This document shows, one piece after another, positions 10,777 through 26,063 of a stretch of DNA of 64,000 nt. Where the stretch lies: the NCBI GenBank assembly GCA_002420005.1, contig DIHE01000147.1:36006-100005 (forward strand). The letters run 5' to 3'. The DNA is from Holophagales bacterium UBA5704. GTDB taxonomy: Bacteria; Acidobacteriota; Thermoanaerobaculia; Multivoradales; UBA5704. The notes under the pieces are model-generated. The model was given only the letters and a program-made list of their open reading frames with translations, ran no database searches and was not told where the DNA came from. Positions within the stretch are counted from its first letter, which is position 1. Each line of letters begins with the position of its first letter. A program made the translations under genes and the position numbers.

Positions 10777-12012
10777 TCAAGACACGGCCGCGGCGAGCGC
10801 CGGCTCTTCCAGCTCCGCCTCCTCCTCTTCGGCCACCGGCAGGGCGTCCGGAAAGCCCTTCCACCCGTCCGGCCCGAGGCGCATCTCGTCGTCGGTCAAC
10901 AGGCACTCCTCCAGCCGGCGGGTCAGCGCCTCCCGGTCCATGCCGATGCCGATCAGCACCAACTCCTGGCGCCGGTCGCCAAAGTCGGGGTGCCAGGTCT
11001 CCGCCAGCTCGCGGCGGAAATCCTCGTCCTCCGGCCAGTCCTCGGAGGGCATCGCGGCCCACCAGACGCCGCCGGGCGCCAGGGTCGAGCACCGGCCGGC
11101 GTGGGACCAGACGAAGATCTCGTCCATCCGCGAGGCCACCCACAGAAAACCCTTGGAGCGCACGACGCCGGGCCACTCCTCCAGGGCATACCGGCGGAAG
11201 CGCTCCGGATGGAACGGCCGCGCCGAGCGGAAGACGAAGCTCGCGATCCCGTACTCCTCGGTCTCGGGCACGTGCTCGCCGGCCAGCTCGCGCATCCAGC
11301 CCGCCGACGCGGAGGCCTTCTCCATGTCGAACAGACCGGTGTCGAAAATCGCCTCCAGCGGCACGCGCCCGTGCTCGCTGCGCACGATCCGCGCCGTCGG
11401 ATTGAGATGGCGCAGCAGACCCTCGATGCGGCCCAGCTCCTCCTCGGTCGCGAGATCCGCCTTGTTGAGCACCAGGACGTTGCTGAATTCGATCTGATCC
11501 ACCAGCAGATCGGCGATGGTCCGCTCATCCTCGGCGCCGGCGGTCAGTCCGCGCGCCAGGAGATCCTCGCCGCGCTCGATCTCGGCCAGGACGTTGGCCG
11601 CGTCCACCACCGTCACCAGGGTGTCCAGGCGGGCGAGGTCGCCCAGGCTCACGCCGTCGCCGTCGGTGAAGCTGAAGGTCATGGCCACCGGCAGAGGCTC
11701 GGAAATGCCGGTGGACTCGATGAGCAGGTAGTCGAAGCGCCCCTCGCGGGCCAGGCGGGACACCTCCAGCAACAGGTCTTCCCGCAAGGTGCAGCAGATG
11801 CAGCCGTTGGTCATCTCCACCAGCCGCTCCTCGGTGCGATCGAGACGGGCGTCGCCGTCGCGCACCAGCCGGGCGTCGATGTTGACCTCGCTCATGTCGT
11901 TGACGATCACCGCGACACGGCGCCCGCTGCGCTGGGCCAGGACATGGTTGAGAAGCGTCGTCTTCCCCGCGCCGAGGAAGCCGGAGAGGACGGTGACAGG
12001 GAGCTGGCTCAT
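10777..12012 (-). CDS. COG0523 G3E-family GTPase metallochaperone (CobW/ZigA/YjiA-like), putative zinc chaperone
   Basis: Walker [14 protein letters not shown] metal motif [10 protein letters not shown], His/acidic C-terminal region; AGGAGG RBS 9 nt upstream of ATG 12012; upstream part of track ORF is in-frame read-through. Confidence 0.85.
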
Positions 12013-12070
12013 GAGTGCGGTACCTCCTTCAAGTGAGAGGCCATTCTCAACAAGCCGACCCTGCCGGGTT

Positions 12071-12271
12071 GTGCGAAATCGCACCGCCCGAGGTCCCGCG
12101 GCGAGAGATGCTGGAGCCGCCAACGCCGCGCCCTCCGCGATAGGGCGCGGTGCCCATGATGCGTCCGCCGGGGCCAGAATCCCTCCGGCGGCGCCTTTTT
12201 TCCTTCAGCGCCCTGCACCCTCCCTCCTCCCTCGGAATTCTTTCTGTGCCTGTGCCGAATCGCACCGGTGC
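12071..12271. promoter_or_regulatory. Divergent promoter region with two copies of an imperfect-palindrome motif GTGC(C)GAA(A)TCGCAC and an 8-bp hairpin
   Basis: GTGCGAAATCGCAC 12071-12084; GTGCCGAATCGCACCGGTGC 12252-12271 (contains perfect palindrome GCACCGGTGC); CGCGCCCT-N7-AGGGCGCG 12127-12149; lies between divergent COG0523 gene and RiPP precursor. Confidence 0.3.
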
Positions 12272-12409
12272 AGGGGTGAAAAGCGGACAAACCGAACCGG
12301 CCGGGGCTCTCTATCCTCCCGCTCATTCGGCAGGCCTGCCGGAGACCCCGGTGCGGCGACGTGCCGCCGTGCCGATGCCGATCAACCCGTTTTCAGGAGG
12401 ATTACGCCC

Positions 12410-12553
12410 ATGGACTTCAAGAACGACATCTTCGAAGCCGTCTCCGCCACCCTCTCCGAGGATCCGGTCCACAGCAACACCCACAACCACGCTCTCGTCC
12501 ACAACCCCTTCGCCTGGGAAGAGGACGAGACCTCCACCCCCGACGCCGAGTAG
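12410..12553 (+). CDS. RiPP precursor peptide candidate (47 aa, Cys-free, His/Asn-rich): MDFKNDIFEAVSATLSEDPVHSNTHNHALVHNPFAWEEDETSTPDAE
   Basis: AGGAGG RBS 7 nt upstream of ATG; strong GC3 codon bias consistent with genuine coding; positioned immediately upstream of E1-like/YcaO/SagB operon; followed by stem-loop attenuator. Confidence 0.6.
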   Translation: MDFKNDIFEAVSATLSEDPVHSNTHNHALVHNPFAWEEDETSTPDAE

Positions 12554-12577
12554 CCCCACCCACGTCCTCGTTCCTCC

Positions 12578-12610
12578 GGGGGAGGCGGCACGTCGCCTCC
12601 CCCTTTCTTG
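12578..12610 (+). terminator. Stem-loop attenuator between precursor and modification genes (perfect 10-bp GC stem + TTTCTTG)
   Basis: GGGGGAGGCG(12578-12587) loop gcacgt CGCCTCCCCC(12594-12603) then TTTCTTG; typical of RiPP precursor-enzyme stoichiometry control. Confidence 0.5.
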
Positions 12611-12635
12611 CGACCTGGAGCTTGCAGGAGGCACC

Positions 12636-13460
12636 TTGAACGAAGCCCTGCGCGATGGTTGGCACCTTTGCCCCTCACCGGAGGGACGCTGGATGCTGGT
12701 CTCCCCCGAAGAGCGGTTCGTGCGGTTGCGCATCGAGCCGGAGCAGGCCGCCCGGCTGGCCCATCGGTTGACCGGCGGGACCACGGGCGGAGAGCCGGAG
12801 GGCGACCTGCTCCCGATCCTGGAGACGTTCGCGCAGCAGGGGCTGCTGGCCGACCGGCCGGCTGCGGTGTCCCCGCTCACCGGCCGCCATGTTCTGGTGC
12901 GCGGCGGCGGACCTGTCGCCGCCACGGTGACCCGCCTGCTGCGCGCGGCCGGCGTGGGACGGGTGACGGAACGCGACGCCGGAGCCCTTCCCGTCTCCAC
13001 GGTCGACGCGCCGCACGCGGTCATCGCCTGCGCCGGCTGGCTTCCCGATGCGGACTGGCTTCGGCTGGACGCCTGGTGCGCCGGGCACGGCATCGTCTGG
13101 ACCGGCTGCCACGCCGAGGGGCTGCGCTTTCATCTCGGCCCGCTGGCGATTCCCGGACGCACCGCGGGCTATGCCGATGTCCGCGCGCGGCGGCTCGCCG
13201 CGGCGCGCCATCCCGCGGAGCTCGAAGCCTGGTGGCGCCATCTGGACGGAGGCCGGGACGTTCCGGCGGTCCCCTGGCCGGAGCCGGCCGCCCTCGCCGC
13301 CCTCGCCGCCGCCCTCGCCGCCGACGTCCTGGCCTGGCTGAGCGGCAGGCCGCTCCCGCACGAAGGGGTGCAGCTCGCGTTCGATCCGGTGCGCTGGGAC
13401 TGGACGCGCCATCCGGTCCTGCCGGTGCCGCGCAACCTGATGCAGGAGCCCGCCGCATGA
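12636..13460 (+). CDS. E1-like (ThiF/MoeB-fold) YcaO partner protein with N-terminal RRE-like region (TOMM 'C'-type protein)
   Basis: Degenerate Rossmann HVLVRGGGPVAATVTRLLRAAGVGRV and ThiF-like HAVIACAGW..CAGHGIVW pattern, no catalytic CxxC; candidate starts TTG 12636 (AGGAGG upstream) or ATG 12693 (GGAGGG upstream); stop overlaps next start (ATGA). Confidence 0.55.
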   Translation: MNEALRDGWHLCPSPEGRWMLVSPEERFVRLRIEPEQAARLAHRLTGGTTGGEPEGDLLPILETFAQQGLLADRPAAVSPLTGRHVLVRGGGPVAATVTRLLRAAGVGRVTERDAGALPVSTVDAPHAVIACAGWLPDADWLRLDAWCAGHGIVWTGCHAEGLRFHLGPLAIPGRTAGYADVRARRLAAARHPAELEAWWRHLDGGRDVPAVPWPEPAALAALAAALAADVLAWLSGRPLPHEGVQLAFDPVRWDWTRHPVLPVPRNLMQEPAA

Positions 13461-14041
13461 ACGCCCAGGGACCGATCCTCGCCCTCTGCGGCAGCCTGCG
13501 CCACCCGTCGCGCACCCGCCAGGCCCTGGAACGCGCGCTCGCCGCAGCGGCGCGCCTGGGGGCCGCCACCGAGCTCCTCGCCGGGGAGCCGTTGCGCCTC
13601 CCCCTCTGCGACGGCCGCCCGGAGGCCGAGATCCCGCCCGCGGTGGCGGAGCTGCGGCACCGGGCGCGGGCCGCCGCGGCCCTGCTCCTCGGCTCGCCGG
13701 AGTACTGCGGCACCTACTCGGCGGTGATCAAGAACGTCGTCGAATGGCTCGGCCCCTCGATCCTGCAGGGCAAGGTGGTGGGCGTGGTCACCGTCGCCGA
13801 GGGGCCGAGCGCGCAGGGGTCCTTGCGCGCGCTGCGCGAGCTGTGCCTGCTCGAAGGTGCCTGGGTGGTGCCGGCCGCCGCGGCCATCCCGCTGGTCGAG
13901 CAGGTGTTCGCACAGCCGTCCGCGCCGCTGGCGGTCTCGGTGCTGCGCCACCTCGACGCCCTCGGCAAAGCCCTGCCGGGCGCCCTCCGCCGCCTGCACG
14001 GCCCTTCCGGCCGGCCTCCCGCGGAGGGTCTGCCGGCATGA
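13457..14041 (+). CDS. NAD(P)H-dependent FMN reductase (flavodoxin-like fold, SsuE/ArsH-like)
   Basis: ILALCGSLRHPSRT...LLLGSPEYCGTYSAVIKNVVEW motif of NADPH-dependent FMN reductase family; ATGA overlaps both neighbours. Confidence 0.7.
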   Translation: MNAQGPILALCGSLRHPSRTRQALERALAAAARLGAATELLAGEPLRLPLCDGRPEAEIPPAVAELRHRARAAAALLLGSPEYCGTYSAVIKNVVEWLGPSILQGKVVGVVTVAEGPSAQGSLRALRELCLLEGAWVVPAAAAIPLVEQVFAQPSAPLAVSVLRHLDALGKALPGALRRLHGPSGRPPAEGLPA

Positions 14042-15627
14042 GGGGGCGCAACGTCCCCTGCGTGCACGCCGGGCTCCGAGTGGAGGCGCCGGACGGGGTG
14101 CGGCTCGCGACGGACGTCTACCGGCCCGGCGCCGGACGGCCGGTGCCGGCGGTCCTGCTGCGCACCTACCTGGGCAAGGCGCGGCACCAGGAGGAGGCGC
14201 TGGCCTGGGTGCGCGAAGGCTTCGCCTGCGTGGTTCAGGACGTGCGGGGCCGCTACGACTCGGACGGCTCCTGGGAACCCTATGTCCACGAGCGGGCGGA
14301 TGGCGCCGCGGCGGCGCGCTGGACCGCCGGGCAGCCCTGGTGCGACGGCCGCGTGGTGGTGGCCGGCGGCTCGTATGGCGCCTTCACCGCCTGGGCGGCG
14401 GCCCTGGAGAGCCCGGTGGTGCGGGCGGCGGCGGTCTCCGTCCCCGCCATGCACCGGGTGAATTTCGCACCCGGCGGGGTGCTCAAGCTGCTCAATCACA
14501 CCGCCTGGTGGATGGCGCACGGAGACGCCCGCACCGAGCGGACCCGTCTGTTCGAGGCGATGTGCAGAGCCTGCCCGGATCTCCTCGCACGCCTGCCGGT
14601 CTGCGCTCTGCCACCGAATGTCTGGGCCGCGCTGCCCGGTTGGCTCCCCGCAGCCCTCGCCGGCCCCGGACGGCCCGCGGTCTCCGACGCGGATCTCGCC
14701 GGGCTCGCCCTGCCGGTGCTCCACATCGGAGGCTGGCACGATCCGTTCATCGCCCAGACGATCCACCAGCAGGCGACCGCCGGATCGGCCGTGGCGCCTC
14801 GGCCCATCCGCCGGATCATCGTCGGCCCCTGGACCCACGAGCTGCACAGCCACGTGCCCGCGGTCTATGGCGCGCGCACCTACGGGCCGGCCTCCCGCCT
14901 GCCGCTGGGGCGCCTGCAGGCCGAGTTCTTCCGCGGAGCCCTCGCGGATTGCACCGCGCCGGCGGCGCAGCTTTTTCTCACCGGTGCGAACCGCTGGCTC
15001 ACAGGGGACGGCTGGCCGCCGGTGCCGGTCGCGCCGTGCACCTGGTTTGCCTCCGCGGGCGGCGCTCTCGCTCCGGAGCCGCCCCGCGCCGGGGGCTCCG
15101 TCTCGTTCTCCTACGATCCCCTCTCCCCCTATCCCGGCCGCAACGGCCCGGTCGACCAGAGCGATCTGCTGCGCCGGCCGGACACCACCGCGTTCACCTC
15201 CCCACCGCTCGCCGCGCCGCTCACCTGGATCGGCGGACCGCGGGTGATCCTCCACGCCGCCACCGACGCCCCCGGCACCGACTGGGTCGCCCGCCTGCAT
15301 GAGGTCTTGCCGGATGGCCGCAGCCTCTACCTCGGCCATGGCCTGGTGGACGCGGCGCAGGAGCTCGCCCGCGACGGCGGAAAGCTCGTGCCGGGCGAGG
15401 CTCACCGGGTGGAGATCGACCTGCCCCCGCTCGCCATCACCCTCCCGGCAGGGCACCGGCTCCGCCTGGAGATCACCAGCAGCGACTTCCCGGCCCATGC
15501 GCGCAACCTGAACACCGGTGCCTGCCGCCTGACCACCTCGGCGACCCGGGTGGCGCGGCAGACGATCCTCCATGGACCCTCGGCTCCCACGGCCCTGGTG
15601 CTGCCGGTGGCACAGGAGCTCCCGTGA
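14038..15627 (+). CDS. CocE/NonD-family alpha/beta hydrolase (S15 X-Pro dipeptidyl-peptidase-like)
   Basis: Nucleophile elbow VVAGGSYGAF, S15-family N-terminal region (DGVRLATDVYRP), C-terminal beta-sandwich; translationally coupled within RiPP operon. Confidence 0.7.
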   Translation: MRGRNVPCVHAGLRVEAPDGVRLATDVYRPGAGRPVPAVLLRTYLGKARHQEEALAWVREGFACVVQDVRGRYDSDGSWEPYVHERADGAAAARWTAGQPWCDGRVVVAGGSYGAFTAWAAALESPVVRAAAVSVPAMHRVNFAPGGVLKLLNHTAWWMAHGDARTERTRLFEAMCRACPDLLARLPVCALPPNVWAALPGWLPAALAGPGRPAVSDADLAGLALPVLHIGGWHDPFIAQTIHQQATAGSAVAPRPIRRIIVGPWTHELHSHVPAVYGARTYGPASRLPLGRLQAEFFRGALADCTAPAAQLFLTGANRWLTGDGWPPVPVAPCTWFASAGGALAPEPPRAGGSVSFSYDPLSPYPGRNGPVDQSDLLRRPDTTAFTSPPLAAPLTWIGGPRVILHAATDAPGTDWVARLHEVLPDGRSLYLGHGLVDAAQELARDGGKLVPGEAHRVEIDLPPLAITLPAGHRLRLEITSSDFPAHARNLNTGACRLTTSATRVARQTILHGPSAPTALVLPVAQELP

Positions 15628-16988
15628 GCGATCCCCTGAAGCTCCTGGTCGATCCGCGCTTCGGCATCGTCACCGCGCTGGAGCGGCGCATGCATCCGCC
15701 GGAGGTGCCGCCGGCCCTGATCTCCTACACGGCACGGGTCGCCGACACCCGGCGGCTGGGTGCCTGGCAAGGGGACCGGGTGGCCCTCGGCTCCGCCTTC
15801 TGGGACGAGGACCGGGCGCGCCGCGCGGCGCTCGGCGAAGCGGTGGAACGCACCTGCGGCAACTTCGTCCCCGCCGGGCTGCTGCGCGCCTCGCACCGCG
15901 ACCTGCGCACGGCCGGCGAGCCGGCCCTCGATCCCGCCGCGATGGTGCTCTATGCGGACTCGCAGTACGACCACCGCGGCTTCCCCTTCGTCCGCTTCAC
16001 CGACGACCTGCGGGTGCTCTGGACGACCGGCCGCGATCTCGCGACCGGAGAGGCGGTGCGGGTGCCCGCGTCGTTCGTCTACATCAACTACTACGGCGGC
16101 GCCCTGGCCGGCGAGCCGAGGACGAACTTCGTCCTCTACTCCGGAATCGCCACCGGGCCGAATCGGGAGGCGGCGGAGGAGGCGGCCCTGGAGGAGCTCA
16201 TCGAGCGCGACGCCACCATGATCTGGTGGATGTCCGGCAGCCCGGCCGTCGGCATTCCTCTGGAAAGCGCACCGATGGTCCGCGCCGCTCTCGCCCATCC
16301 CGCCGACCACGGTACGCTGCACCATCACCTGATCCAGATCCGCACCCCTTTCGACGTGCCGGTGGTCGGCGCCCTGGTGCAGGACACGGAGCTGTCCCTG
16401 ATCGGGCTCGGCGTGGCCTGCCGCCCCGATCCCGGACAGGCCGCTCTCAAGGCGCTGGTCGAGGCGATCCACCTGCGCTGCTTCAGCCGCCAGATGCTCG
16501 ATCCCGGCGGCAGCGTCTGGCGCTCCATGCGCTCCGGAATCCTCGACCCCCGCGCCTACAAACCCTTCCGCGCCGACCGCGCCTACCGGGATGCGTACCG
16601 CGCCGACTTCCGCGACGTGACCGACCTCGGAGCCCAGTCGCAGATCTATCTCGACCCCCGGATGCACGTCCACGCCGACCGCATCCTCCACCCTGCCGCC
16701 TGGGCCCCCCTGGATCGGCTGCCCGCCGTCCCGGGCCGCGCCGCCTACCGGCAACGGCTCGCCGCGCGCGGCTTCCGGGCGATCTCGGTGGACGTCACCA
16801 CGCCGGACGTGCAGGCCGCCGGCTTGTGCGTCGTGCGGGTGATCGTCCCGGGGCTCTACCCGAACGCGCCCGCCGCCTTCCCGTTCCTCGGCGGGCGCCG
16901 GCTGTATGAAGAGCCGGCGGCGCTCGGCTGGCTCCCGGCGCCGCTCACCGAGGCCGACCTGGTCCGCGTCCCCCTGCCGCACACATGA
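15624..16988 (+). CDS. YcaO-domain cyclodehydratase (azoline-forming type, C-terminal Pro-rich motif)
   Basis: YcaO ATP-binding glutamate motifs (LGEAVERTCGN, LEELIERDA), C-terminal VRVPLPHT PxP motif; GTGA/ATGA overlaps. Confidence 0.85.
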   Translation: MSDPLKLLVDPRFGIVTALERRMHPPEVPPALISYTARVADTRRLGAWQGDRVALGSAFWDEDRARRAALGEAVERTCGNFVPAGLLRASHRDLRTAGEPALDPAAMVLYADSQYDHRGFPFVRFTDDLRVLWTTGRDLATGEAVRVPASFVYINYYGGALAGEPRTNFVLYSGIATGPNREAAEEAALEELIERDATMIWWMSGSPAVGIPLESAPMVRAALAHPADHGTLHHHLIQIRTPFDVPVVGALVQDTELSLIGLGVACRPDPGQAALKALVEAIHLRCFSRQMLDPGGSVWRSMRSGILDPRAYKPFRADRAYRDAYRADFRDVTDLGAQSQIYLDPRMHVHADRILHPAAWAPLDRLPAVPGRAAYRQRLAARGFRAISVDVTTPDVQAAGLCVVRVIVPGLYPNAPAAFPFLGGRRLYEEPAALGWLPAPLTEADLVRVPLPHT

Positions 16989-18292
16989 GCGAGCCGCCCG
17001 TCCTCGCCTACCACCGGCGGAGCAAGAACCGTCCGGGCCGCCCCGCCGCGGCACCCCGGAGGCTCGACCGCTCCATCGAGCCGGTCCCCTTCCGGCGCTA
17101 CCGCGGTGCCGCCCTGCTCCCCCTGCCGGAGATCCCGCCGGTGGACGGCCCGGCCTGGGGGGAGCTGTTCATCCCCGGCGCCGTCGCCCCTGCACCGCTC
17201 GACCGGGAGGCCGTGGCCCGCCTGTTCTTCGACTCCCTGGCGATCTCCGCCTGGCGCGAGGAGGCCGGCGCCCGCTTCTCGTTCCGGGTGAACCCCTCCG
17301 CCGGCAACCTCCATCCGACCGAGGCCTATCTCCTCGCCGGCCCCCTGCCCGGGCTGCACGACCGGGCCGCCCTCTACCACTACTCACCGTTCGACCACGC
17401 CCTGGAGATCCGCGCCGATCTGCCGGACGGCGGCGTGCCGCCCGGCACCCTCCTTCTCGGATTCACCTCGATCCTCTGGCGCACCGCCTGGAAATACGGC
17501 GAGCGCGCCTTCCGCCTCGCCCGGCTCGACGCGGGGCATGCCCTCGCCGCGGTCACCTGGGCCGCCGCGGCCCTGGGCTGGGAAGCGCGGCAGGTGGAGA
17601 TCGGCGACGCGGCGCTGGCGCGCCTGCTGGGTGTCGCCGCGCAGGAAGGGCCGGAACGCGAGGAACCGGTGGCCCTGCTCGCCCTCGGAGCCCCGCCCGA
17701 CGCCCGGCCCGGGGCGCCGGGGGACGGCGGCCGTCCGAACCGGATCAGCCCCGGCCACCGGAGCTGGCCGGCGCTCGACGCCGTCACCGCGGCCACCCGC
17801 CACCCGGGTGCGGAGCGGCAGGCCGCACCGGGTGCGGAGACGGCGCGCGCCGTCCTGCGCGGCCGGCGAAGCCCGGCGGCGTTCGCGGGCGCCTTGGGAG
17901 CGGAGGAAATTTCCCGGGTTTTTGCCGGTGGACTTTCTCGCCCGTTCGTGCAGCGGCCCCTGCTGCGGGTCGAACGTCTGCTCCCGGGCGACGGCGTGGA
18001 CCTTCGCCGCCTGGCCGGCCACCAGAGCTTCGCGGCCGGCGCCTCCTGCCTCGCGGTGCTGCTGGGTGACCTGGAGCCGGCGCTCGCCCCCGGCGGCGCC
18101 TGGCTCTACCGCCGGCTGCATGAGGAGGCCGGAGCGATCGGGCACGCGCTCTCCCTGGAGGCGGCGGCGCAGGGCCTGGGAGCGCGGGGCATCGGCGGAT
18201 TTCTCGACGACGAGGTTCTGGCCGCTCTCGGGTTGCCGGCGGAGGGCCGGTGGCAGGCCCTGTATCTGTTGGCGGTGGGGCGGCCGGCGTGA
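16985..18292 (+). CDS. SagB-type (McbC-like) FMN-dependent dehydrogenase, nitroreductase superfamily
   Basis: FSFRVNPSAGNLHPTEAYL signature of SagB/ThcOx dehydrogenases; two nitroreductase-like halves. Confidence 0.8.
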   Translation: MSEPPVLAYHRRSKNRPGRPAAAPRRLDRSIEPVPFRRYRGAALLPLPEIPPVDGPAWGELFIPGAVAPAPLDREAVARLFFDSLAISAWREEAGARFSFRVNPSAGNLHPTEAYLLAGPLPGLHDRAALYHYSPFDHALEIRADLPDGGVPPGTLLLGFTSILWRTAWKYGERAFRLARLDAGHALAAVTWAAAALGWEARQVEIGDAALARLLGVAAQEGPEREEPVALLALGAPPDARPGAPGDGGRPNRISPGHRSWPALDAVTAATRHPGAERQAAPGAETARAVLRGRRSPAAFAGALGAEEISRVFAGGLSRPFVQRPLLRVERLLPGDGVDLRRLAGHQSFAAGASCLAVLLGDLEPALAPGGAWLYRRLHEEAGAIGHALSLEAAAQGLGARGIGGFLDDEVLAALGLPAEGRWQALYLLAVGRPA

Positions 18293-19602
18293 AGGCCTTC
18301 GGTCGCCTCGTCGATCCCCGGCTGGGCCTCCTGCGCCGCCTCGCCCTGGAGCCGCTGCCGCCGCACCTCCCCCCCGGCCTCTGCCAGGCCCGCGCCGAGA
18401 TCGCCGACAGCCGCGCCTTCTCCCCCTGGACGAGCGACGCCGCCGCGGCCGGGCTCGCCTGGTGGAACGCGGAGGCGGCCCGCGCCGCGGCGGTTGGTGA
18501 GGCGGTCGAGCGCTATTGCGGCAACGTCGTGCCCACCGGGCTGCGGCGCGCTTCCTACGCCGAGCTCGCCGCCGGTGGTGGGGCGGCCCTCGATCCGGCG
18601 GATCTCGCCCTCTATGCCCCGGAGCAGTATCGCCGGCGCGGTTTCCCCTTTGTGCCGTTCACCCGCGACCTGCAGGTGCTGTGGACCACGGGCTTCGATC
18701 TGGCCACCGGGGACTCCGTGGCCGTCCCGGCCTCCTGGGTGTGGACCTCGTGGAGCACCGGGCCGGCGGCCGGCGAGCCGAAGACCCACGGCACGATCTA
18801 CGCAGGCATCGCGGCCGGCCCGTCCCGGGAGGAGGCCGAGCGCAGCGCTCTCGCGGAGCTCGTGGAACGCGATGCGGTCCACCTCGCCTGGACGGCCGGC
18901 GTCCCCCTCCCCCGGCTCACGCCACCGGCCTGGATGGAGCCCTTGCTCACCGCTGCGCGCGGGGCGGTCACCGCCGAGCTGTACCTCTTCCCCAACGCCT
19001 TCGGCCTGCCGGTCGTCGGCGCCCTCCTGCGCGACCGGGAGGCCGGCGTGGTGACCCTGGGCCAGGCCTGCCGCACCACACCCGTCGACGCGGCCCTCAA
19101 AGCGGTGGCCGAGGCCGCCCAGCTCAACCTGGTCGCCCGCGCCCTGGCCGACCCGCAAACCGGCCTCGCCGACCGCCTCGCCGCCGTCCCCGGCGCCGCG
19201 CTCCATCCCTGGCGGGCCGACCGCGGCTACGCCGCGCTCTACGGTCCCCTCTGGCGCGGCGCCCGCGATCTCCTGTGCCATCTCCAGCTCCATCTCGATC
19301 CGGCTCTGCACAAGCCCCTCGCCGATCGGCTCGCCACCGGAGGCACCCGGCCCCTGGCCGACCTCCCCGCCGCCGGCCCCGAAACCCGGGAGACCTACCT
19401 GACGCGCCTGCACGCCCGCGGCTTCCGCGCCGTCTCGGTCGACGTCACCACCTCCGACGTCGCCCCGACGGGCCTGCGCGTCGTCCGGGTCGTGGTCCCC
19501 GGGCTCTACGCCAATGCCCCCGCCGCCTTCCCCTATCTGGGAGGACGGCGGCTGGCGGAGGCGGGCGGGGTGCGCTGCACCCTGCCGCCTCCCTATGCGT
19601 GA
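18289..19602 (+). CDS. Second YcaO-domain protein, paralogue of 15624-16988
   Basis: GEAVERYCGN / LAELVERDA motifs; C-terminal block VSVDVTTSDVAPTGLRVVRVVVPGLYANAPAAFPYLGGRRL nearly identical to first YcaO; GTG 18289 overlaps SagB stop; ends LPPPYA. Confidence 0.85.
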   Translation: MKAFGRLVDPRLGLLRRLALEPLPPHLPPGLCQARAEIADSRAFSPWTSDAAAAGLAWWNAEAARAAAVGEAVERYCGNVVPTGLRRASYAELAAGGGAALDPADLALYAPEQYRRRGFPFVPFTRDLQVLWTTGFDLATGDSVAVPASWVWTSWSTGPAAGEPKTHGTIYAGIAAGPSREEAERSALAELVERDAVHLAWTAGVPLPRLTPPAWMEPLLTAARGAVTAELYLFPNAFGLPVVGALLRDREAGVVTLGQACRTTPVDAALKAVAEAAQLNLVARALADPQTGLADRLAAVPGAALHPWRADRGYAALYGPLWRGARDLLCHLQLHLDPALHKPLADRLATGGTRPLADLPAAGPETRETYLTRLHARGFRAVSVDVTTSDVAPTGLRVVRVVVPGLYANAPAAFPYLGGRRLAEAGGVRCTLPPPYA

Positions 19603-19676
19603 GGTGGACCACGCTAGAGCAGGAGCGCCGCGGGGTCGCTTGCGTGCCGTAGGTGCGTGAGTGCGATGACTCAGCT

Positions 19677-19706
19677 GCGGGAGCTTACTGTATAATAGGG
19701 GAGAAT
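19677..19706 (+). promoter_or_regulatory. Putative sigma70-type promoter (TGACTC-N18-TATAAT) for island genes
   Basis: Perfect TATAAT at 19701-19706 in locally AT-rich DNA, 150 nt upstream of lipoprotein ATG. Confidence 0.35.
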
Positions 19707-19857
19707 GAAATCGCTCCTGAAGGGCACCCTACCAACTCCCAAGCTCTCGGAGGGGCGTTCTGATACAGGAGTGTAGCCAGAGCCTTCTTCTCGCCGCAAA
19801 TAGAACTCGGCGAAGCCTGGGCAATGCTGGGCGTCGCCACCATGAGGGAGAAACGCT

Positions 19858-20277: not shown

Positions 20278-20389
20278 CCCCGCTGAGCCTGGCAAGGGCG
20301 GTGCCCCCCATTCATCACAGGCGCGAGGTTCGCCCCTCCGGGAAGACTTCTCGCGGAGAACGGTCGCTCACACTCAAGGGGTTCTTGGA

Positions 20390-21205: not shown

Positions 21206-21550
21206 AACACTTACCCTACCTCAGGCACGCCACCGAGCGGAGAGCCCCGCGTTGTTCTCCAGCTGGCGCCGTGAATAGGAATGGTCCGAGGGATCGGTAG
21301 ATCGGCCCAAGCGAGAGAAGATCGGCGAGACCGCCTGGCGGGTGGATAATCCGGACCTTGGACCGTAGGGTCCTGCCTTGCGTTCCAGCGACTCCCGCCC
21401 ACATGTGCCTGCCGGACCTTGATCTGAGTGAGGCTCGCCACCCAAGGACCGGGAGCCTCCGCCCGCGGGCGGGGTACCCCCGCATCTCGGGTATTGGCGC
21501 TATACTTCCGTGCGTCCAGCCCTTCTTGCGGGCTGGCAGAGGAGTTTTGA

Positions 21551-22044: not shown

Positions 22045-22080
22045 CTCCTCGAACGGCGGACGGCGCCCGGGGCCGGTGCC

Positions 22081-22827
22081 TCAGTGCCGGACGCAGAACC
22101 GCTCCCCGCCCGGGGTGCGCACCACGCTGAGCACGCCCCGGCGGCGGAGCTGGCTGAGCAGGCGGGTGACGGTGGCCCGGGTGCCTCCGACCGCCGAGGC
22201 GATCTGCGCGTGGGTCAGCCGGACGTCGAGCAGCAGGCCGCGGGGATGCGGCCGGCCGAAGGGCTCGGCGAGCAGATGGAGGATGCCCAGCACCCGCTGC
22301 TCCATGTGCGGCCGGGCCTGCATGGAGGCCCAGGCCTCCATCTGCCGCAGCCGGTACCGCAGCCGCTCGGCCAGCTCGGGCTGACGGATCGCCTCGACCC
22401 AGGTGTGGGTGCGGACCTCGACCTCGGTGTGGGCGGTCAGCTCGAGGGCGCAGCCATGGGCCGGATGCCCCGGCAGAAGCCGGCCGGGGCCGAACAGGCC
22501 CAGCAGGACCTCCGCGCCGTCCGCATGCAGCGCGGTAAGCGCCACCACCCCCTCCTTCACTTCGAGAACCGCGTCGTCCGGCAACGAGATGAGCTGCCCC
22601 TGGCGATAGCGGTGCCGGCGGTGGGCCGCCGGGGCCGGAGCGGGGGGCGGCGGGGCCGGCGCCACGGCCGGGCCGGCGGCCATCGACGACAGCACGCTGC
22701 GCACCGTGCGTTCCATCTGATCCGGCGGCAGGTCGTCCGACACGAGGGTGATGCAGCACTCGCCGCCGAGCAGGCCGGCGAGATCGGTGGCGCGTTCTTT
22801 CGGGCCGAGAAACACCAGATGATGCAT
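22081..22827 (-). CDS. Crp/Fnr-family transcriptional regulator with ~60-aa N-terminal extension
   Basis: cNMP-binding beta-roll region followed by HTH THAQIASAVGGTRATVTRLLSQLRRRGVL; GAGGAG RBS. Confidence 0.75.
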   Translation of the reverse strand: MHHLVFLGPKERATDLAGLLGGECCITLVSDDLPPDQMERTVRSVLSSMAAGPAVAPAPPPPAPAPAAHRRHRYRQGQLISLPDDAVLEVKEGVVALTALHADGAEVLLGLFGPGRLLPGHPAHGCALELTAHTEVEVRTHTWVEAIRQPELAERLRYRLRQMEAWASMQARPHMEQRVLGILHLLAEPFGRPHPRGLLLDVRLTHAQIASAVGGTRATVTRLLSQLRRRGVLSVVRTPGGERFCVRH

Positions 22828-22839
22828 GACGACATCTCC

Positions 22840-25278
22840 TCACTCGTTGCGCAGGGCGACCTGGGGGTCCACCCGCATCGCCCGTCGCGCCGGCACCCAG
22901 CCGGCGACGAGAGCCACCGCGGCCAGCAGGCACGCCACCGCGGCGAAGGTCCATGGATCGACCGGCTGCACGCCGTAGAGCAGCCCCGCCAGGGTCCGGG
23001 AGAGCAACAACGCTCCCAGCCCACCGGCCACCAGGCCCACACCGGTGAGCCGCAGGGCCTCGCCCAGCACCTCGCGCCGGACCTCCCCCGGCGCCGCGCC
23101 GAGGGCCATGCGGACACCGATCTCCCGCGTCCTCCGCCCCACCGAGAAGGCCAGGACGCCGTAGAGGCCGGTCGCCGCCAGAGCCAGGGCGAGAAGGGCG
23201 AAGCCGCCAAACAGAAGGCCCGCGAGACGCTGCCGCCAGACCGTGTCCAGCACCCGCCGGCGCAGGGTGCGGAAGTCGTCGACCGGCTGGTCGGGATCGA
23301 CCGCGGCCACGGCGCGGCGCACCGGCTCGATCAGCGCCTCCGGCCTCCCCGCGCCCGGACGCAGGCGCACCGCCACGTGAAACCAGCCGTCCGGCACCTG
23401 CCGCGCCGAGAGGTACACGGCGTACCCCGGCGGCTGCAGCAGATCGTCGTGGCGCACGTCGCCCGCGATCCCGACCACCGTCAGCCAGGGCGACTCCTCC
23501 ACCCGGCCGTCGATCCGGCGCAGCCGGCGGCCCAGAGCGGAGCCGTCCGGCCAGAGGAGGCGGGCCAGCCGGTGACCGATCACGGCGGTGCGCGGCGCCC
23601 CCTCGCGGTCCTCCTCGCCGAGCGGACGCCCGCTCTCCAGAGGGATGCGCAGCGTGGCGAAGTAGCCCGGGGTGACGGTCTGGAAATGCACATAGGGGTT
23701 GCGGGTCCCGGCCTCCGCAGGCTGCCCTTCGGCCAGAACCAGCCCGCGGTCGGGCCGGTCGGCGCCGGCCAGGGGGAGGTTGGTGTTGAGCGCCGCCGAG
23801 GCGACTCCGGGAAGCGCTTCGACCTTCGCCAGCAGGTCACGCTGGAAGGGGACGATCCGCTCCTCCGGGTAGGTCCAGGGCAACGCCAGGCGGAAGGTGA
23901 GCACGCCGTCGGGATCGAAGCCCGCCGGCACCTGCCAGATCGCCACAAAGGTCCGCGTCAGGAGGCCGGCTCCCACCAGAAGCATCAAGGAGAGCGCCAC
24001 CTCGACGACGACCAGGGCGGCGCGCAGCCGGCGGTGCTCCACGCCGCCGACGGCCCCCTTGGCCGTACCCGCCTGGAGGGCGGCCAGCAGCCGCCCGGAG
24101 CCGGCGCGGACGGCCGGGAGAAGCCCGGCTCCGAGACCCACCAGAAACGCCACCAGGAAGGTGAACGCCACCACCCGACCATCCAGGCGGGCCTCCATCC
24201 AGAGAGGAAGGTCGAGGCGCACGGCCGCGGCGATCCCGCGCAAGCACCCGAAGGCGACCAGGAGGCCCAAGGCGCCGCCGAGGAACGAGAGCAACAGGCT
24301 CTCCGCCAGGAGCTGCCGGAGCACCGCGCCCCGCCCTGCGCCGAGCGCAAAGCGCAGCGCGATCTCCCGCTCCCGCTCCAGAGCCCGGGCCAGCAGGAGG
24401 TTCGCCACGTTGACGCAGGCGATCAGCAGAACCAGCAGAACCGCCCCGGCGATCAGCAGCAGATACGGCCGGATCGGCCCGACAGAGCTCTCGCGCAGAG
24501 AGAGGAGCCGCAGCTCCACCCCGCCATTGGTGGCCGGCTCGGTGCGCTGCAACGTCTTGCCCAGCGCCGCCACGGCGGCGGCGGCCTGCTCCAGCGAGAC
24601 GCCGGGGCGCAACCGCGCCAACACCACCACCCGGCGCACCGAGCGGTCCTCCAGGTTGGGGAAGAACCGGCTGATGTAGAGCGAGCGGTAGAGGTCGGTC
24701 TGCGCCGGCAGCTCGATGCCCTCGGGAAGGACGCCGAACACGGTATAGGACGGGCGCTGTGCCGGCGAGGCGTCGAGGGTCACCGTACGCCCCACCACTG
24801 CGGGATCGCCGCCGAGCTTCCGCTTCCAGACACGATGGCTGAGCACGATGCCGAAGTTGCGGGAGCGGTCGAACTCCTCCGGCCAGGGGCCGCCGTGGAG
24901 AAACGAGACGCCGAGCACCCGGAAGAGGTTCTGGCTCGCCACGATGGCCGGGAGCTTCTCGGGATCGCCCGCGCCGGAGAGCGTATAGGCCGAGTCGGGA
25001 ACGTAGGCCGCCACCTCGGTGAACACGGAGGTCCGCTCGCGCAGGTCGAGCACCTCGCGCATCGCGAGCGGCCCGCGCTCGCCACCGCGCACCGTCTCCA
25101 GCCGCACCAGCCGGTCGGGGTCGCGAAAGGGCGGAGGCTGAAGCAGGACGGCGTCGATCACACTGAACACGGCGGCGTTCGCGCCGATCCCCAGGCCGAG
25201 CGTGACGAGGATCAAGGCGGTGACCGCCGGCCGCCGGGCCAGGGATCGCCAGGCGGCCCGCAGCAGCGGCGGGGTCAT
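22840..25278 (-). CDS. ABC transporter permease, FtsX/MacB-like, duplicated FtsX (4+4 TM) with large periplasmic domains
   Basis: 813 aa; two MacB_PCD/FtsX modules (LLARALEREREIALRFALGA..., VGRRTREIGVRMALGAAPG...); ATG 25278 overlaps upstream ATPase stop. Confidence 0.8.
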   Translation of the reverse strand: MTPPLLRAAWRSLARRPAVTALILVTLGLGIGANAAVFSVIDAVLLQPPPFRDPDRLVRLETVRGGERGPLAMREVLDLRERTSVFTEVAAYVPDSAYTLSGAGDPEKLPAIVASQNLFRVLGVSFLHGGPWPEEFDRSRNFGIVLSHRVWKRKLGGDPAVVGRTVTLDASPAQRPSYTVFGVLPEGIELPAQTDLYRSLYISRFFPNLEDRSVRRVVVLARLRPGVSLEQAAAAVAALGKTLQRTEPATNGGVELRLLSLRESSVGPIRPYLLLIAGAVLLVLLIACVNVANLLLARALEREREIALRFALGAGRGAVLRQLLAESLLLSFLGGALGLLVAFGCLRGIAAAVRLDLPLWMEARLDGRVVAFTFLVAFLVGLGAGLLPAVRAGSGRLLAALQAGTAKGAVGGVEHRRLRAALVVVEVALSLMLLVGAGLLTRTFVAIWQVPAGFDPDGVLTFRLALPWTYPEERIVPFQRDLLAKVEALPGVASAALNTNLPLAGADRPDRGLVLAEGQPAEAGTRNPYVHFQTVTPGYFATLRIPLESGRPLGEEDREGAPRTAVIGHRLARLLWPDGSALGRRLRRIDGRVEESPWLTVVGIAGDVRHDDLLQPPGYAVYLSARQVPDGWFHVAVRLRPGAGRPEALIEPVRRAVAAVDPDQPVDDFRTLRRRVLDTVWRQRLAGLLFGGFALLALALAATGLYGVLAFSVGRRTREIGVRMALGAAPGEVRREVLGEALRLTGVGLVAGGLGALLLSRTLAGLLYGVQPVDPWTFAAVACLLAAVALVAGWVPARRAMRVDPQVALRNE

Positions 25279-26063
25279 GACACCCTCCCGGGCAGGGCGA
25301 CCATCTCGGCCACCGCGGAGCCGAACGTCCGCTCGAAGACGCCGGACTCGATCAGCTCCCCGGCGCCGCCGGCCACCAGCGGCCCTCCCTTGGGCAGCAG
25401 CCAGAGGCGGTCGGCGTTGCGCAGGGCCAGCTCCAGATCGTGGGTCGACAGGAGGACGGCCTTGCCTTCGTCGTGCGCCAGCCGGCGCAGGATGCGCAGA
25501 ACCTCCACCCGGTGCGGCAGGTCGAGGAACGCCGTCACCTCGTCGAGGAGCAGCACCTCCGGCTCCTGCGCCAGGGCGCGCGCGATCATCACCTTTTGCC
25601 GCTCGCCGTCCGACAGCTCGGCGACGCTGCGGCCGGCCAGGTCCTGCGCTCCCACGGCGGCGAGGGACCGTTGGACGATCGCGTGATCGGCCGCGGCGAG
25701 CCGCCCCGACCAACCGGTGTACGGGTAGCGGCCGAGCTCCACCAGGGCGGTGGCGGTGAGCGCCTCGACGACGATGCGGTCGGTGAGCACCACGGCGAGA
25801 TGGCGGGCCAGCCGCCGCGGCCCCAGCTCCCGCAGATCCTCGCCGGCGACCACCACCCGCCCGGCGAGCGGCGGCTGCATGCCGGCCAGCGTGCGCAGCA
25901 AGGTGGACTTGCCGGCGCCGTTCGGCCCCAGGAAACAGACGAGCTCGCCGCGGCGCAGCACCGTCTCGATACCCTCCAGCACCGGCCGCGGCCGGCGATG
26001 CCGGACATAGCCGACCGCAAGCCCTTCGACGCGGAGCGGGGGCCGGTTTGCGTCGTCTCTCAT
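25275..26063 (-). CDS. ABC transporter ATP-binding protein (FepC/FecE/BtuD-like)
   Basis: Walker A GPNGAGKST, signature LSDGERQKV, Walker B LLLDEVT; ATGA overlaps on both sides. Confidence 0.85.
   Translation of the reverse strand: MRDDANRPPLRVEGLAVGYVRHRRPRPVLEGIETVLRRGELVCFLGPNGAGKSTLLRTLAGMQPPLAGRVVVAGEDLRELGPRRLARHLAVVLTDRIVVEALTATALVELGRYPYTGWSGRLAAADHAIVQRSLAAVGAQDLAGRSVAELSDGERQKVMIARALAQEPEVLLLDEVTAFLDLPHRVEVLRILRRLAHDEGKAVLLSTHDLELALRNADRLWLLPKGGPLVAGGAGELIESGVFERTFGSAVAEMVALPGRVS

What the first reader, a model, noticed from the sequence alone, without database searches (positions are those of the whole stretch)
13457..15627. Unusual tailoring pair inside the RiPP operon: NADPH-FMN reductase and S15 CocE/NonD peptidase
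SagB-type dehydrogenases carry their own FMN and oxidise azolines to azoles, so a co-transcribed NAD(P)H:FMN reductase is unexpected. It may supply reduced flavin for a reductive step such as azoline to azolidine, or for another redox modification. The S15 (X-Pro dipeptidyl-peptidase / CocE-NonD) alpha/beta hydrolase is a plausible leader- or follower-peptidase. Known YcaO RiPP clusters use different enzymes for this step: C39 or S8 proteases in many TOMMs, M17 aminopeptidase and amidohydrolases in bottromycin, and a different alpha/beta hydrolase there. Both genes sit in the middle of the coupled operon, so they are not chance neighbours.
Basis: partly seen in the sequence, partly recalled or inferred. 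Interest (0 to 1): 0.55.

Follow-up and report, generated by a model that had tools for sequence, protein, structure and literature searches.

The report
Streptamidine-type RiPP cluster with extra reductase
The two genes are real and belong to a streptamidine-type peptide gene cluster in an Acidobacteriota genome: the "S15 peptidase" is the already known and essential AmiC-type hydrolase of that family, while the small flavin reductase is a rare, cluster-specific add-on whose chemical role is still unknown.

Summary
Both genes exist exactly as described: FMN_red at 13457-14041 and the S15 CocE/NonD hydrolase at 14038-15627. Both are ATGA-coupled inside a + strand operon. The operon is not a new kind of YcaO cluster. 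It is a member of the published streptamidine (ami) family (Russell et al. 2021, PMC8442711). The gene order is amiA-amiB-[FMN_red]-amiC-amiD-amiE-[second YcaO], and the precursor carries the family's ALVxNPF signature.

The S15 hydrolase is the AmiC equivalent. AmiC is PF02129, is genetically essential, and is predicted to remove the leader.

The FMN reductase is not described in that paper. It forms a very small subfamily: only 2 of 1.84 billion representatives reach E<=1e-30. In all 10 distinct clusters found it lies immediately after amiB. At least six of these lack any SagB/AmiE-like gene within the sequence recovered, so it is not a SagB helper. It is kept even in minimal clusters made of precursor, AmiB, FMN_red and one YcaO.

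Its closest solved relatives are YhdA and ChrR-type reductases. LanJB shows that this protein family can reduce peptides directly. Its substrate here is inferred, not shown.

Verdict: new variant of a known kind, moderate interest.

The parts
12410..12553 (+). Precursor peptide (AmiA-like, 47 aa): MDFKNDIFEAVSATLSEDPVHSNTHNHALVHNPFAWEEDETSTPDAE. The predicted core is V20-H25 (nt 12467-12484), followed by an ALVHNPFAW follower and an acidic tail.
   Evidence: An AGGAGG ribosome-binding site lies upstream. The identical 47-aa product is called on public contigs. The ALVxNPF signature is shared with published Network-1 peptides and with precursors in L001, L013-L018, L081-L083 and L090. The core was assigned by aligning to the streptamidine core HLSATH, which sits at -8 to -3 from ALV; this assignment is an inference.
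12578..12603 (+). Strong hairpin (11 pairs, 9 of them G-C) plus a T-rich tract, between the precursor gene and amiB. It is a likely partial terminator or attenuator that sets the ratio of precursor to enzyme transcripts.
   Evidence: The function is inferred.
12636..13460 (+). AmiB-like E1-like / leader-binding partner of YcaO. The start is TTG 12636 with a GCAGGAGG ribosome-binding site; public gene calls use ATG 12693 instead.
   Evidence: No Pfam hit, as published for AmiB. Weak TIGR03882 hit. 38-60% identical to the gene in the same position in L081, L013, L014, L015, L083 and L087.
13457..14041 (+). [quoted passage not shown]
   Evidence: PF03358, E=2.4e-28. The flavin-binding motifs GSLRxxSxT and PEYCG are conserved across the clade. 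Nearest solved relatives are YhdA, azoreductases, ChrR and YieF. The clade is found only in ami-type clusters.
14038..15627 (+). AmiC-type S15 / CocE-NonD serine hydrolase (529 aa), with no N-terminal hydrophobic stretch.
   Evidence: PF02129 + PF08530 and TIGR00976. CocE match at E=1.4e-53. The triad segments GGSYG, GGWHD and GPWTH are invariant in 7 orthologues. 44% identical to the hydrolase of the published C. arvum cluster.
15624..16988 (+). YcaO-1 (in the AmiD position), SagD-type with a Pro-rich C-terminus.
   Evidence: PF02624, E=1.9e-54; TIGR03604, 278 bits. Orthologues at 48-80% identity.
16985..18292 (+). SagB/AmiE-like flavin dehydrogenase (435 aa) with the WKYGERAFR Lys-Tyr motif.
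   Evidence: PF00881, E=3.9e-15; TIGR03605, 73 bits, just under the cutoff of 78. The motif is conserved in L081 and L013. Its length and position match AmiE.
18250..19602 (+). YcaO-2, the second YcaO, as in the published two-YcaO subset.
   Evidence: PF02624, E=1.3e-54; TIGR03604, 245 bits. Published two-YcaO subset.
12070..12265 (.). Two Crp/Fnr-type palindromes (TGTGCGAAATCGCAC at 12070, TGTGCCGAATCGCAC at 12251) in the ZigA-precursor intergenic region. They are candidate operators.
   Evidence: The same or a similar motif lies upstream of the precursor in L081, L083, L017, L001/L015 and L082. The function is inferred.
22081..22827 (-). Crp-family regulator that recurs beside the reductase-containing clusters.
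   Evidence: HTH_Crp_2 and Crp. It recurs in L015, L016, L081, L082 and L088.
22840..30347 (-). Translationally coupled transport operon. TonB-dependent receptor 28290-30347; Peripla_BP_2 27091-28314; FecCD 26060-27094; ABC ATPase 25275-26063; MacB-type permease 22840-25278. This is the amiF-like import set adapted to a diderm cell.
   Evidence: Pfam hits; start and stop overlaps. Boundaries are approximate.
10777..12012 (-). ZigA zinc metallochaperone GTPase, transcribed divergently from the precursor. It is an associated neighbour, not shown to be part of the pathway.
   Evidence: NF038288, 604 bits against a cutoff of 600.

Best explanation
The two genes are components of a streptamidine-family (ami-type) YcaO RiPP cluster in an Acidobacteriota genome.

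The S15 / CocE-NonD gene is the AmiC equivalent. It is a cytoplasmic Ser-Asp-His hydrolase that trims the 47-aa precursor. It removes the leader to expose the N-terminal amine of the core (predicted VHSNTH). The AmiB/YcaO machinery needs that free amine to close a six-membered amidine ring. The hydrolase probably also removes the ALVHNPFAW-acidic follower.

The FMN_red gene is a lineage-specific insertion between amiB and amiC. It encodes a dedicated NAD(P)H oxidoreductase, probably with bound FMN, that works with the AmiB/YcaO core on the peptide itself. The likely reaction is hydride transfer to, or a cryptic redox step at, a YcaO-generated C=N heterocycle. It acts independently of the SagB/AmiE-like dehydrogenase.

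What is shown: family membership, gene order, intact catalytic motifs, and the strict, position-conserved linkage of this reductase clade to ami-type clusters. What rests on published work: AmiC is essential. What is inferred: the cleavage sites, the amidine product and the reductase substrate.
For: Family membership:
- The precursor has the ALV/NPF signature of published Network 1. It aligns core-to-core with streptamidine (HLSATH against VHSNTH, with Ser3, Thr5 and His6 kept).
- Gene order and sizes match Table S8 of PMC8442711 (AmiA 44, AmiB 281 with no Pfam hit, AmiC 508 PF02129, AmiD 455, AmiE 435), apart from two insertions.
- The C. arvum locus L087 carries a precursor identical to the published one. 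Its AmiB, S15, YcaO and YcaO are 38, 44, 48 and 45% identical to the window's, in the same order.
- An amiF-like import set is present.

S15 hydrolase:
- Deleting amiC abolishes all products, and AmiC is predicted to free the His1 amine.
- The triad segments align to the CocE catalytic segments and are invariant in 7 orthologues.
- S15 is present in all nine clusters with acidic-tailed or multi-repeat precursors. It is absent only from the minimal clusters with 31-aa precursors.

Reductase:
- All 10 distinct clusters carrying a clade member (53% identity or more) are ami-type, and the gene always follows amiB.
- The ATGA overlap with the downstream gene is kept in 7 of 7 loci checked, whether that gene is S15 or YcaO.
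- None of 61 more distant FMN_red loci (23 of them 15 kb or longer) has a YcaO or E1 gene nearby.
- Only 2 representatives among 1.84 billion reach E<=1e-30.
- The gene is kept in minimal clusters of precursor + AmiB + FMN_red + one YcaO.
- The flavin-binding motifs are conserved.
- The nearest solved relatives are YhdA, AzoR, ChrR and YieF; SsuE is about 1e-8.
- LanJB shows that the FMN_red family can reduce RiPP peptides directly.
Against: - No biochemical data exist for any member of this reductase clade. No mass or structure is known for any product of a reductase-containing cluster.
- Reduction of an azoline or amidine C=N bond by an FMN_red enzyme has no precedent that I could find.
- The presence of the reductase does not track any one core-sequence feature. 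L013 has almost the same core (VHTNSH) without it.
- Streptamidine-family clusters in actinomycetes work without it, so it is not needed for the basic chemistry.
- I could not align AmiC from S. albidoflavus directly. The link rests on the same Pfam family, the same position and coupling, and the C. arvum cluster from the same published family.
- The cleavage sites are predicted by alignment only.
Confidence: 0.6

Rival explanations
1. Metal release rather than tailoring. The product would be a metallophore that is re-imported through the TonB-dependent receptor and FecBCD-type system. The FMN_red protein would reduce the bound metal (for example Fe(III)), and the S15 hydrolase would degrade the imported peptide to release it, as reductase and esterase pairs do in siderophore systems.
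For: - Every cluster is embedded in siderophore-type import and export genes.
- FMN_red relatives include chromate and ferric reductases (ChrR 4hs4, YieF 3svl, 3u7r).
- Zinc-homeostasis genes are neighbours in three unrelated genomes (ZigA; ZnuABC).
- The core is rich in His.
Against: - The reductase always sits between amiB and the next biosynthetic gene with a 4-bp overlap, never among the transport genes.
- Deleting amiC abolishes production, which is a biosynthetic phenotype rather than a utilisation phenotype.
- Streptamidine showed no binding of Fe, Co, Cu, Mg, Mn, Ni or Zn, and the null mutant had no metal-starvation phenotype.
Confidence: 0.15
2. Cryptic oxidation-reduction pair. The AmiE-like dehydrogenase would oxidise an intermediate and the FMN_red would reduce it again. 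The result would be reversal or stereo-inversion with no net redox change. This is option (b) that the streptamidine authors raised to explain why AmiE is essential.
For: - The window and L081 encode both enzymes in one coupled operon.
- AmiE is essential although streptamidine is not oxidised, and the authors explicitly propose a reversing reductase.
- The SagB-like protein keeps the Lys-Tyr motif.
Against: - At least six of the ten reductase-containing clusters show no AmiE-like gene in the sequence recovered.
- The actinomycete clusters where AmiE is essential have no FMN_red (0 hits for FMN or NADPH in the paper's supplements).
- This could therefore hold only for the window/L081 subtype.
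Confidence: 0.12
3. Flavin supplier. The FMN_red would be a two-component flavin reductase that hands free FMNH2 to the SagB-like protein or to another flavoenzyme.
For: The family name, plus weak NCBIfam similarity to MsuE and SsuE (far below the cutoffs).
Against: - SsuE-type enzymes are distant (about 1e-8), whereas YhdA and ChrR types are at 1e-24 to 1e-16. By general knowledge, the YhdA and ChrR types keep FMN bound.
- Most clusters contain no candidate acceptor flavoenzyme or monooxygenase.
Confidence: 0.07
4. Chance neighbour or recent insertion of a housekeeping reductase with no role in the pathway.
For: The gene is absent from the characterised actinomycete clusters and from L013, L014 and L087.
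Against: The position and the coupling are conserved in 10 distinct clusters from at least three phyla or orders. The subfamily is discrete and very small, and it is never found outside such clusters.
Confidence: 0.02

Closest known systems
Streptamidine (ami) biosynthetic gene cluster family, Streptomyces albidoflavus J1074 and 'Network 1' (Russell, Vior, Hems, Lacret, Truman 2021, PMC8442711)
   Same: - Precursor with the ALV(x)NPF signature and a short His/Ser/Thr core just upstream.
- AmiB-like E1 protein with no Pfam hit.
- PF02129 hydrolase translationally coupled to a YcaO.
- Flavin dehydrogenase of 435 aa after the YcaO.
- FecBCD-type import genes.
- The two-YcaO arrangement is also a published subset.
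   Different: - An FMN_red gene is inserted between amiB and amiC; it is not mentioned in the paper or its supplements.
- A second YcaO occurs together with an AmiE-like gene. The published two-YcaO subset generally lacks amiE.
- The host is Acidobacteriota, with relatives in Chloroflexota and Xanthomonadales. The paper covers only Actinobacteria and six Firmicutes.
- Import goes through a TonB-dependent receptor.
- The regulator is Crp-family rather than MarR.
- A MacB-type transporter replaces the AmiT1/T2-type exporters.
AmiC (streptamidine hydrolase) and CocE/NonD S15 hydrolases such as Rhodococcus cocaine esterase CocE
   Same: Same Pfam domains (PF02129 + PF08530). The Ser-Asp-His segments are conserved. 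The position is the same, directly upstream of and coupled to the YcaO gene.
   Different: No direct sequence comparison with S. albidoflavus AmiC was possible here. The nearest published-family member compared (C. arvum) is 44% identical. No AmiC-type enzyme has had its substrate or cleavage sites determined biochemically.
LanJB (CrnJ-type) lanthipeptide reductases
   Same: [quoted passage not shown]
   Different: LanJB reduces dehydroalanine and dehydrobutyrine made by lanthipeptide dehydratases, and no dehydratase is present here. Any substrate here would be a product of YcaO chemistry. Sequence relatedness to LanJB was not tested.
YhdA / AzoR / ChrR / YieF NAD(P)H:FMN oxidoreductases
   Same: These are the closest solved structures by sequence (E 4e-24 to 3e-16). 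The FMN-binding motifs are shared.
   Different: They are stand-alone detoxification or general reductases acting on azo dyes, quinones and chromate. The clade here has its own invariant features (LPxCDG, PEYCG) and occurs only inside ami-type operons.
TOMM 'BCD' synthetases (SagBCD, McbBCD)
   Same: An E1-like partner, a YcaO and a flavoprotein are encoded together. The minimal clusters (AmiB + FMN_red + YcaO) mimic this trio.
   Different: The flavoprotein in the minimal clusters has the flavodoxin-like FMN_red fold, not the nitroreductase-fold SagB/McbC dehydrogenase. The cores are not rich in Cys, Ser or Thr.

Membership tests
Streptamidine-like (ami / Network 1) RiPP cluster | Short precursor with the conserved ALV tripeptide (motif A or B), within 8 kb of a YcaO gene | tested here: met
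   The window precursor carries HNHALVHNPFAW. Compare the published ...SNALVENPFD...HHHALVHNPFVWEEE and ...TTHALVQNPFAWDEEK.
Streptamidine-like (ami / Network 1) RiPP cluster | AmiB: E1-like partner of about 280 aa with no Pfam match, directly after the precursor | tested here: met
   255-274 aa with no Pfam hit, a weak TIGR03882 hit, and 38% identity to the C. arvum counterpart. The fold was not modelled.
Streptamidine-like (ami / Network 1) RiPP cluster | AmiC: PF02129 hydrolase translationally coupled to the YcaO gene | tested here: met
   PF02129, E=2.1e-39; GTGA overlap with YcaO-1.
Streptamidine-like (ami / Network 1) RiPP cluster | AmiD-clade YcaO with a Pro-rich C-terminus | tested here: inconclusive
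   Both YcaO proteins end Pro-rich (VPLPHT, LPPPYA). They are 48% and 45% identical to the C. arvum pair. No phylogeny against the published AmiD clade was built.
Streptamidine-like (ami / Network 1) RiPP cluster | FecBCDE-like import genes adjacent (amiF1-F4) | tested here: met
   Peripla_BP_2, FecCD and an ABC ATPase, plus a TonB-dependent receptor, lie at 25275-30347 on the minus strand.
Streptamidine-like (ami / Network 1) RiPP cluster | Product carries an N-terminal six-membered amidine ring | not testable with these tools
   This needs LC-MS and NMR on the product.
S15 / CocE-NonD serine hydrolase | Alpha/beta-hydrolase domain plus PepX_C domain, with a Ser-Asp-His triad | tested here: met
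   TIGR00976, 280 bits. GGSYG, GGWHD and GPWTH align to the CocE catalytic segments and are invariant in 7 orthologues. The CocE residue numbers S117, D259 and H287 are from my own knowledge.
[quoted passage not shown] | Flavodoxin-like domain with the GSxRxxSxT phosphate loop and the PEY(N/C/H)G loop | tested here: met
   99 bits against a cutoff of 24. The motifs are invariant in the 18-sequence clade alignment. Flavin binding and NAD(P)H use were not tested.
LanJB-type RiPP reductase | FMN_red enzyme co-encoded with a lanthipeptide dehydratase, reducing Dha/Dhb | tested here: not met
   No LanB, LanM, LanKC or LanL gene occurs in the window cluster or in any related locus. The resemblance is in mechanism only.
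SagB-type azoline dehydrogenase (for the neighbouring 16985-18292 gene) | Nitroreductase fold with a conserved Lys-Tyr motif, scoring above the TIGR03605 cutoff | tested here: inconclusive
   The WKYGERAFR motif is present. TIGR03605 scores 73.3 bits, just under the cutoff of 78.4.

The most novel reading that the evidence does not exclude
The FMN_red clade would be a new kind of RiPP tailoring enzyme: a flavodoxin-fold flavoprotein that takes the place of the SagB-type 'B' subunit beside the E1-like and YcaO pair. It would reduce a YcaO-installed C=N bond (azoline to azolidine, or the cyclic amidine). The product would be the first ribosomal peptide with a reduced heterocycle of the pyochelin or yersiniabactin type, and it would serve as a zinc or iron metallophore imported through a TonB-dependent receptor in Acidobacteria and other phyla.
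Probability: 0.15. Interest if true: 0.75.

Novelty: new variant of a known kind. Interest (0 to 1): 0.4.

Why it matters
Streptamidine-type clusters are among the most widespread YcaO RiPP families, yet their biological role is unknown. The published pathway also contains an unexplained redox puzzle: the dehydrogenase AmiE is essential although the product is not oxidised.

This window shows three things. First, the family extends into diderm phyla, with TonB-dependent import. Second, a dedicated reductase has been recruited into the core of the operon. Third, natural variants exist with reductase and dehydrogenase together, with the reductase alone, and with neither. This gives a ready-made comparative series for testing the cryptic redox step.

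It also corrects the idea that the S15 hydrolase is unusual. It is the family's signature peptidase.

Tried and rejected
- My first Pfam and NCBIfam query for the precursor used 12411-12553, which is one base out of frame. The correct gene is 12410-12553. The empty result for that entry therefore means nothing.
- The genome scan with YcaO-1 returned 11 loci with only an E1-YcaO pair. They have no ALV-type precursor and no S15. They belong to other YcaO families and were set aside.
- The idea that the reductase replaces AmiE one-for-one was rejected. The window and L081 have both, and L014 and L087 have neither.
- The idea that reductase presence tracks the core sequence was rejected. L013 has a near-identical core without the reductase.
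- The search with the precursor found only 7 close relatives. It did not reach S. albidoflavus, so AmiC, AmiD and AmiE themselves could not be aligned.
- Literature searches for YcaO with FMN reductase, metallophore, siderophore or thiazolidine found no description of this reductase.
- I did not run structure prediction. The sequence matches to solved structures were already unambiguous, and model coordinates are not returned, so distances such as Cys51 to Cys84 could not have been measured.
- No sigma-70-like promoter was found in 11900-20400. This is uninformative for an Acidobacteriota genome.


Full report
**1. Observation**

The window has about 70% G+C, so raw ORF lists are crowded. A GC3 frame plot resolves a run of + strand genes from about 12.4 to 19.6 kb, with a frame switch near 14000.

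Reading the sequence gives these genes:
- A 47-aa ORF at 12410-12553, preceded by AGGAGG.
- A gene ending at 13460.
- An ATG at 13457 that overlaps that stop (ATGA).
- A stop at 14041 that overlaps the next ATG at 14038 (ATGA).
- A stop at 15627 that overlaps the GTG at 15624.

Pfam and NCBIfam assign them as follows:

| Coordinates | Assignment | Score |
|---|---|---|
| 13457-14041 | FMN_red (PF03358) | E=2.4e-28 |
| 14038-15627 | Peptidase_S15 + PepX_C / TIGR00976 CocE-NonD | E=4.7e-83 |
| 15624-16988 | SagD-type YcaO | 278 bits |
| 16985-18292 | Nitroreductase / SagB-like | 73 bits |
| 18250-19602 | SagD-type YcaO | 245 bits |

The gene before the reductase has no Pfam hit and a weak hit to the TOMM leader-binding model. 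Public gene calls on the identical contig (GCA_036724675.1, an Acidobacteriota MAG) agree.

**2. What the cluster is**

A genome scan with YcaO-1 and tblastn mapping found one close locus, a Roseiflexaceae MAG (L001). Its order is precursor, E1-like, FMN_red, S15, YcaO, YcaO, and it sits among FecCD, Peripla_BP_2, ABC-exporter and MFS_3 genes.

Searches with the two proteins and context look-ups showed a recurrent architecture in Acidobacteriota, Chloroflexota, Xanthomonadales and many actinomycetes.

The precursors share (A/G)LVx(N/T/S)(P/T)F followed by an aromatic residue. This is the signature of the published streptamidine family (Russell et al. 2021, PMC8442711). That paper reports:
- 'ALV' is conserved between its motif A and motif B precursors.
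- The conserved gene set is amiF1-F4 (FecBCDE-like), amiA, amiB (E1-like, no Pfam hit), amiC (hydrolase), amiD (YcaO), amiE (flavin dehydrogenase) and amiT1/T2.
- A subset has two YcaO genes.

Table S8 of the paper gives AmiC as PF02129, 508 aa, and the methods call the YcaO and hydrolase genes translationally coupled.

Published precursors such as ...FAVDPHHHALVHNPFVWEEEKDNEEN (Bacillus) and ...TTHALVQNPFAWDEEK (Frankia) are plainly homologous to the window's ...VHSNTHNHALVHNPFAWEEDE....

As a direct tie, the S15 homologue P0072 lies in Cryptosporangium arvum next to a precursor identical to the published one. The four enzymes there are 38-48% identical to the window's, in the same order.

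The window also carries the import set on the opposite strand: a TonB-dependent receptor, Peripla_BP_2, FecCD and an ABC ATPase, followed by a MacB-type permease and a Crp-family regulator.

The window's order is therefore amiA-amiB-[FMN_red]-amiC-amiD-amiE-[YcaO-2].

**3. The S15 hydrolase**

This is the AmiC equivalent, not an unusual addition.
- Deleting amiC abolishes all pathway products. The authors assign it leader removal, which frees the His1 amine needed for amidine formation.
- The window protein matches cocaine esterase over its full length (E=1.4e-53). Its GGSYG, GGWHD and GPWTH segments align with the CocE segments that hold the Ser-Asp-His triad.
- These segments are invariant in seven orthologues, including C. 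arvum.
- There is no N-terminal hydrophobic stretch, so the enzyme is probably cytoplasmic.

Aligning on ALV places the streptamidine core HLSATH opposite V20-H25 (VHSNTH) of the window peptide, with Ser3, Thr5 and His6 conserved. I therefore predict cleavage at P19|V20 and H25|N26. This is an inference.

S15 is present in every cluster whose precursor has an acidic tail or repeated cores. It is missing only in the minimal clusters with 31-aa precursors. That fits a trimming role.

**4. The reductase**

This is the new element. Neither 'FMN' nor 'NADPH' occurs in the paper's supplements.

The protein keeps the FMN-binding motifs of its family. Its clade also has invariant features of its own, LPxCDG and PEYCG.

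All ten distinct clusters that carry a clade member (53% identity or more) are ami-type, and the gene always directly follows amiB. The ten are:
- window (with L085/L086)
- L081
- L090
- L001/L015
- L017
- L018/L019
- L082
- L083
- L016
- L088/L089

The 4-bp ATGA overlap with the downstream gene is conserved in 7 of 7 loci examined, whether that gene is S15 or YcaO.

In contrast, none of 61 loci encoding more distant FMN_red relatives (44% identity or less; 23 loci of 15 kb or longer) has a YcaO or E1-like gene. One member at 43% identity sits in an unrelated context.

An exhaustive HMMER search of 1.84 billion representatives finds only two at E<=1e-30. The subfamily is therefore rare, discrete and dedicated to these operons. 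It is not a chance neighbour.

**5. What the reductase is not**

- **Not a SagB helper.** Only the window and L081 were found to combine it with an AmiE-like gene. L001/L015, L017, L082, L083, L016 and L088/L089 show none in the sequence recovered. L018/L019 and L090 are truncated, so they cannot be scored.
- **Not a one-for-one AmiE replacement.** L014 and L087 have neither gene.
- **Probably not a free-flavin supplier.** The nearest solved relatives are YhdA, AzoR, ChrR, YieF and ArsH (E 4e-24 to 5e-16), while SsuE is at about 1e-8. Most clusters also have no acceptor flavoenzyme.

The AmiE-like gene, not the reductase, tracks the core type. It is present with xHSxTH-type cores (window, L081, L013, S. 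albidoflavus). It is absent with APCNH cores and with cores that have no heterocyclisable residue.

**6. Most likely mechanism**

The gene sits between, and is coupled to, the AmiB/YcaO machinery. It also survives in minimal clusters of precursor + AmiB + FMN_red + one YcaO. This points to a biosynthetic role on the peptide, comparable to the flavoprotein of a BCD-type synthetase.

LanJB enzymes show that FMN_red-family proteins can transfer hydride to an sp2 centre of a RiPP peptide. I therefore favour a direct redox step on a YcaO-generated C=N heterocycle, or a cryptic redox role. The substrate is inferred.

The streptamidine authors' own suggestion, that 'a reductase reverses' AmiE, could apply to the window/L081 subtype only.

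A metal-release role is a real rival, because of the uptake genes, the family's chromate and ferric reductase members, and the zinc-related neighbours. Against it stand the operon position, the biosynthetic phenotype of the amiC deletion, and the lack of metal binding by streptamidine.

**7. Comparison and novelty**

The cluster is a member of a known family.
- The hydrolase half of the finding is already known.
- New here: the reductase, the combination of two YcaO genes with an AmiE-like gene, the diderm-type import, the Crp-family regulation, and the spread to Acidobacteriota, Chloroflexota and Xanthomonadales.
- Not new: the basic chemistry and architecture.

I rate it a new variant of a known kind, with moderate interest. 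The main reason is that it offers natural variants for testing the unexplained redox requirement of streptamidine biosynthesis.

Noticed in passing
window 12070-12084 and 12251-12265; L081:43, L083:6672/6697/12813, L017:578, L001:6621, L082:8698: A Crp/Fnr-type palindrome, TGTGCGAAATCGCAC or a close variant, lies 130-340 bp upstream of the precursor gene in most reductase-containing clusters. It is absent upstream of the precursor in the reductase-lacking L013 and L014. A Crp-family regulator gene recurs beside the same clusters (window 22081-22827). This is a likely dedicated regulator-operator pair.
   Followed up: partly
window 12578-12603: A strong G+C-rich hairpin with a T-rich tail lies between the precursor gene and amiB. 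It looks like a partial terminator that would make the precursor transcript more abundant than the enzyme transcripts.
   Followed up: no
window 10777-12012 (-); L014:18080-21519; L087:12888-16131: Zinc-homeostasis genes sit next to ami-type clusters in three unrelated genomes: ZigA (divergent from the precursor) in the window, ZnuABC with an ArsR/MarR-type regulator in Dactylosporangium, and ZnuABC with a Fur-family regulator in Cryptosporangium. This hints at a zinc link for the family, although streptamidine showed no zinc binding in the published assays.
   Followed up: partly
L016:3391-9322; L088:1293-7796; L089: A minimal variant of the cluster occurs in Xanthomonadales-type contigs: a 31-aa precursor (M[IL]QQLVNAKNLPVYNALSNHGLVHN[TP]F[AT]FKK), AmiB-like, FMN_red and a single YcaO, flanked by a Crp-like regulator and a TonB-dependent receptor. 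It has no S15, no second YcaO and no AmiE-like gene.
   Followed up: partly
window 16985-18292; L081:5635-7014; L013:13269-14915: The presence of the SagB/AmiE-like gene tracks the core type. It is present with xH(S/T)N(T/S)H cores, as with streptamidine's HLSATH. It is absent with APCNH (Cys) cores and with the QGPGTN motif-B cores. All three copies keep the WKYGERAFR Lys-Tyr motif.
   Followed up: partly
window 19700-22050: A low-G+C stretch (0.58 against about 0.73) lies between YcaO-2 and the Crp-like gene. It holds a YoeB toxin and antitoxin pair (21551-22044) and small ORFs with no family hit. Its content differs between two otherwise identical public contigs (L085 and L086), so it looks like a variable insertion that splits the biosynthetic operon from the transport operon.
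   Followed up: no
L082:10549-12193: The S15 gene of this cluster is called as two ORFs, Peptidase_S15 and PepX_C separately. This is either a frameshift (pseudogene) or an assembly error.
   Followed up: no
L013:8434-9309 and 12097-13272; L081:3435-4271: Some relatives carry further tailoring genes that the window lacks. A SAM-dependent methyltransferase lies between S15 and YcaO-1 in L013 and L081, and a DegT/DnrJ-type aminotransferase lies in L013. The family's chemistry therefore varies beyond the reductase.
   Followed up: no
L002-L012: Eleven loci from actinomycetes, Holophagae and Chloroflexaceae have an E1-like and YcaO pair at 40-45% identity to YcaO-1. They have no ALV-type precursor, no S15 and no reductase. 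They are related cyclodehydratases from other, unidentified RiPP families.
   Followed up: no
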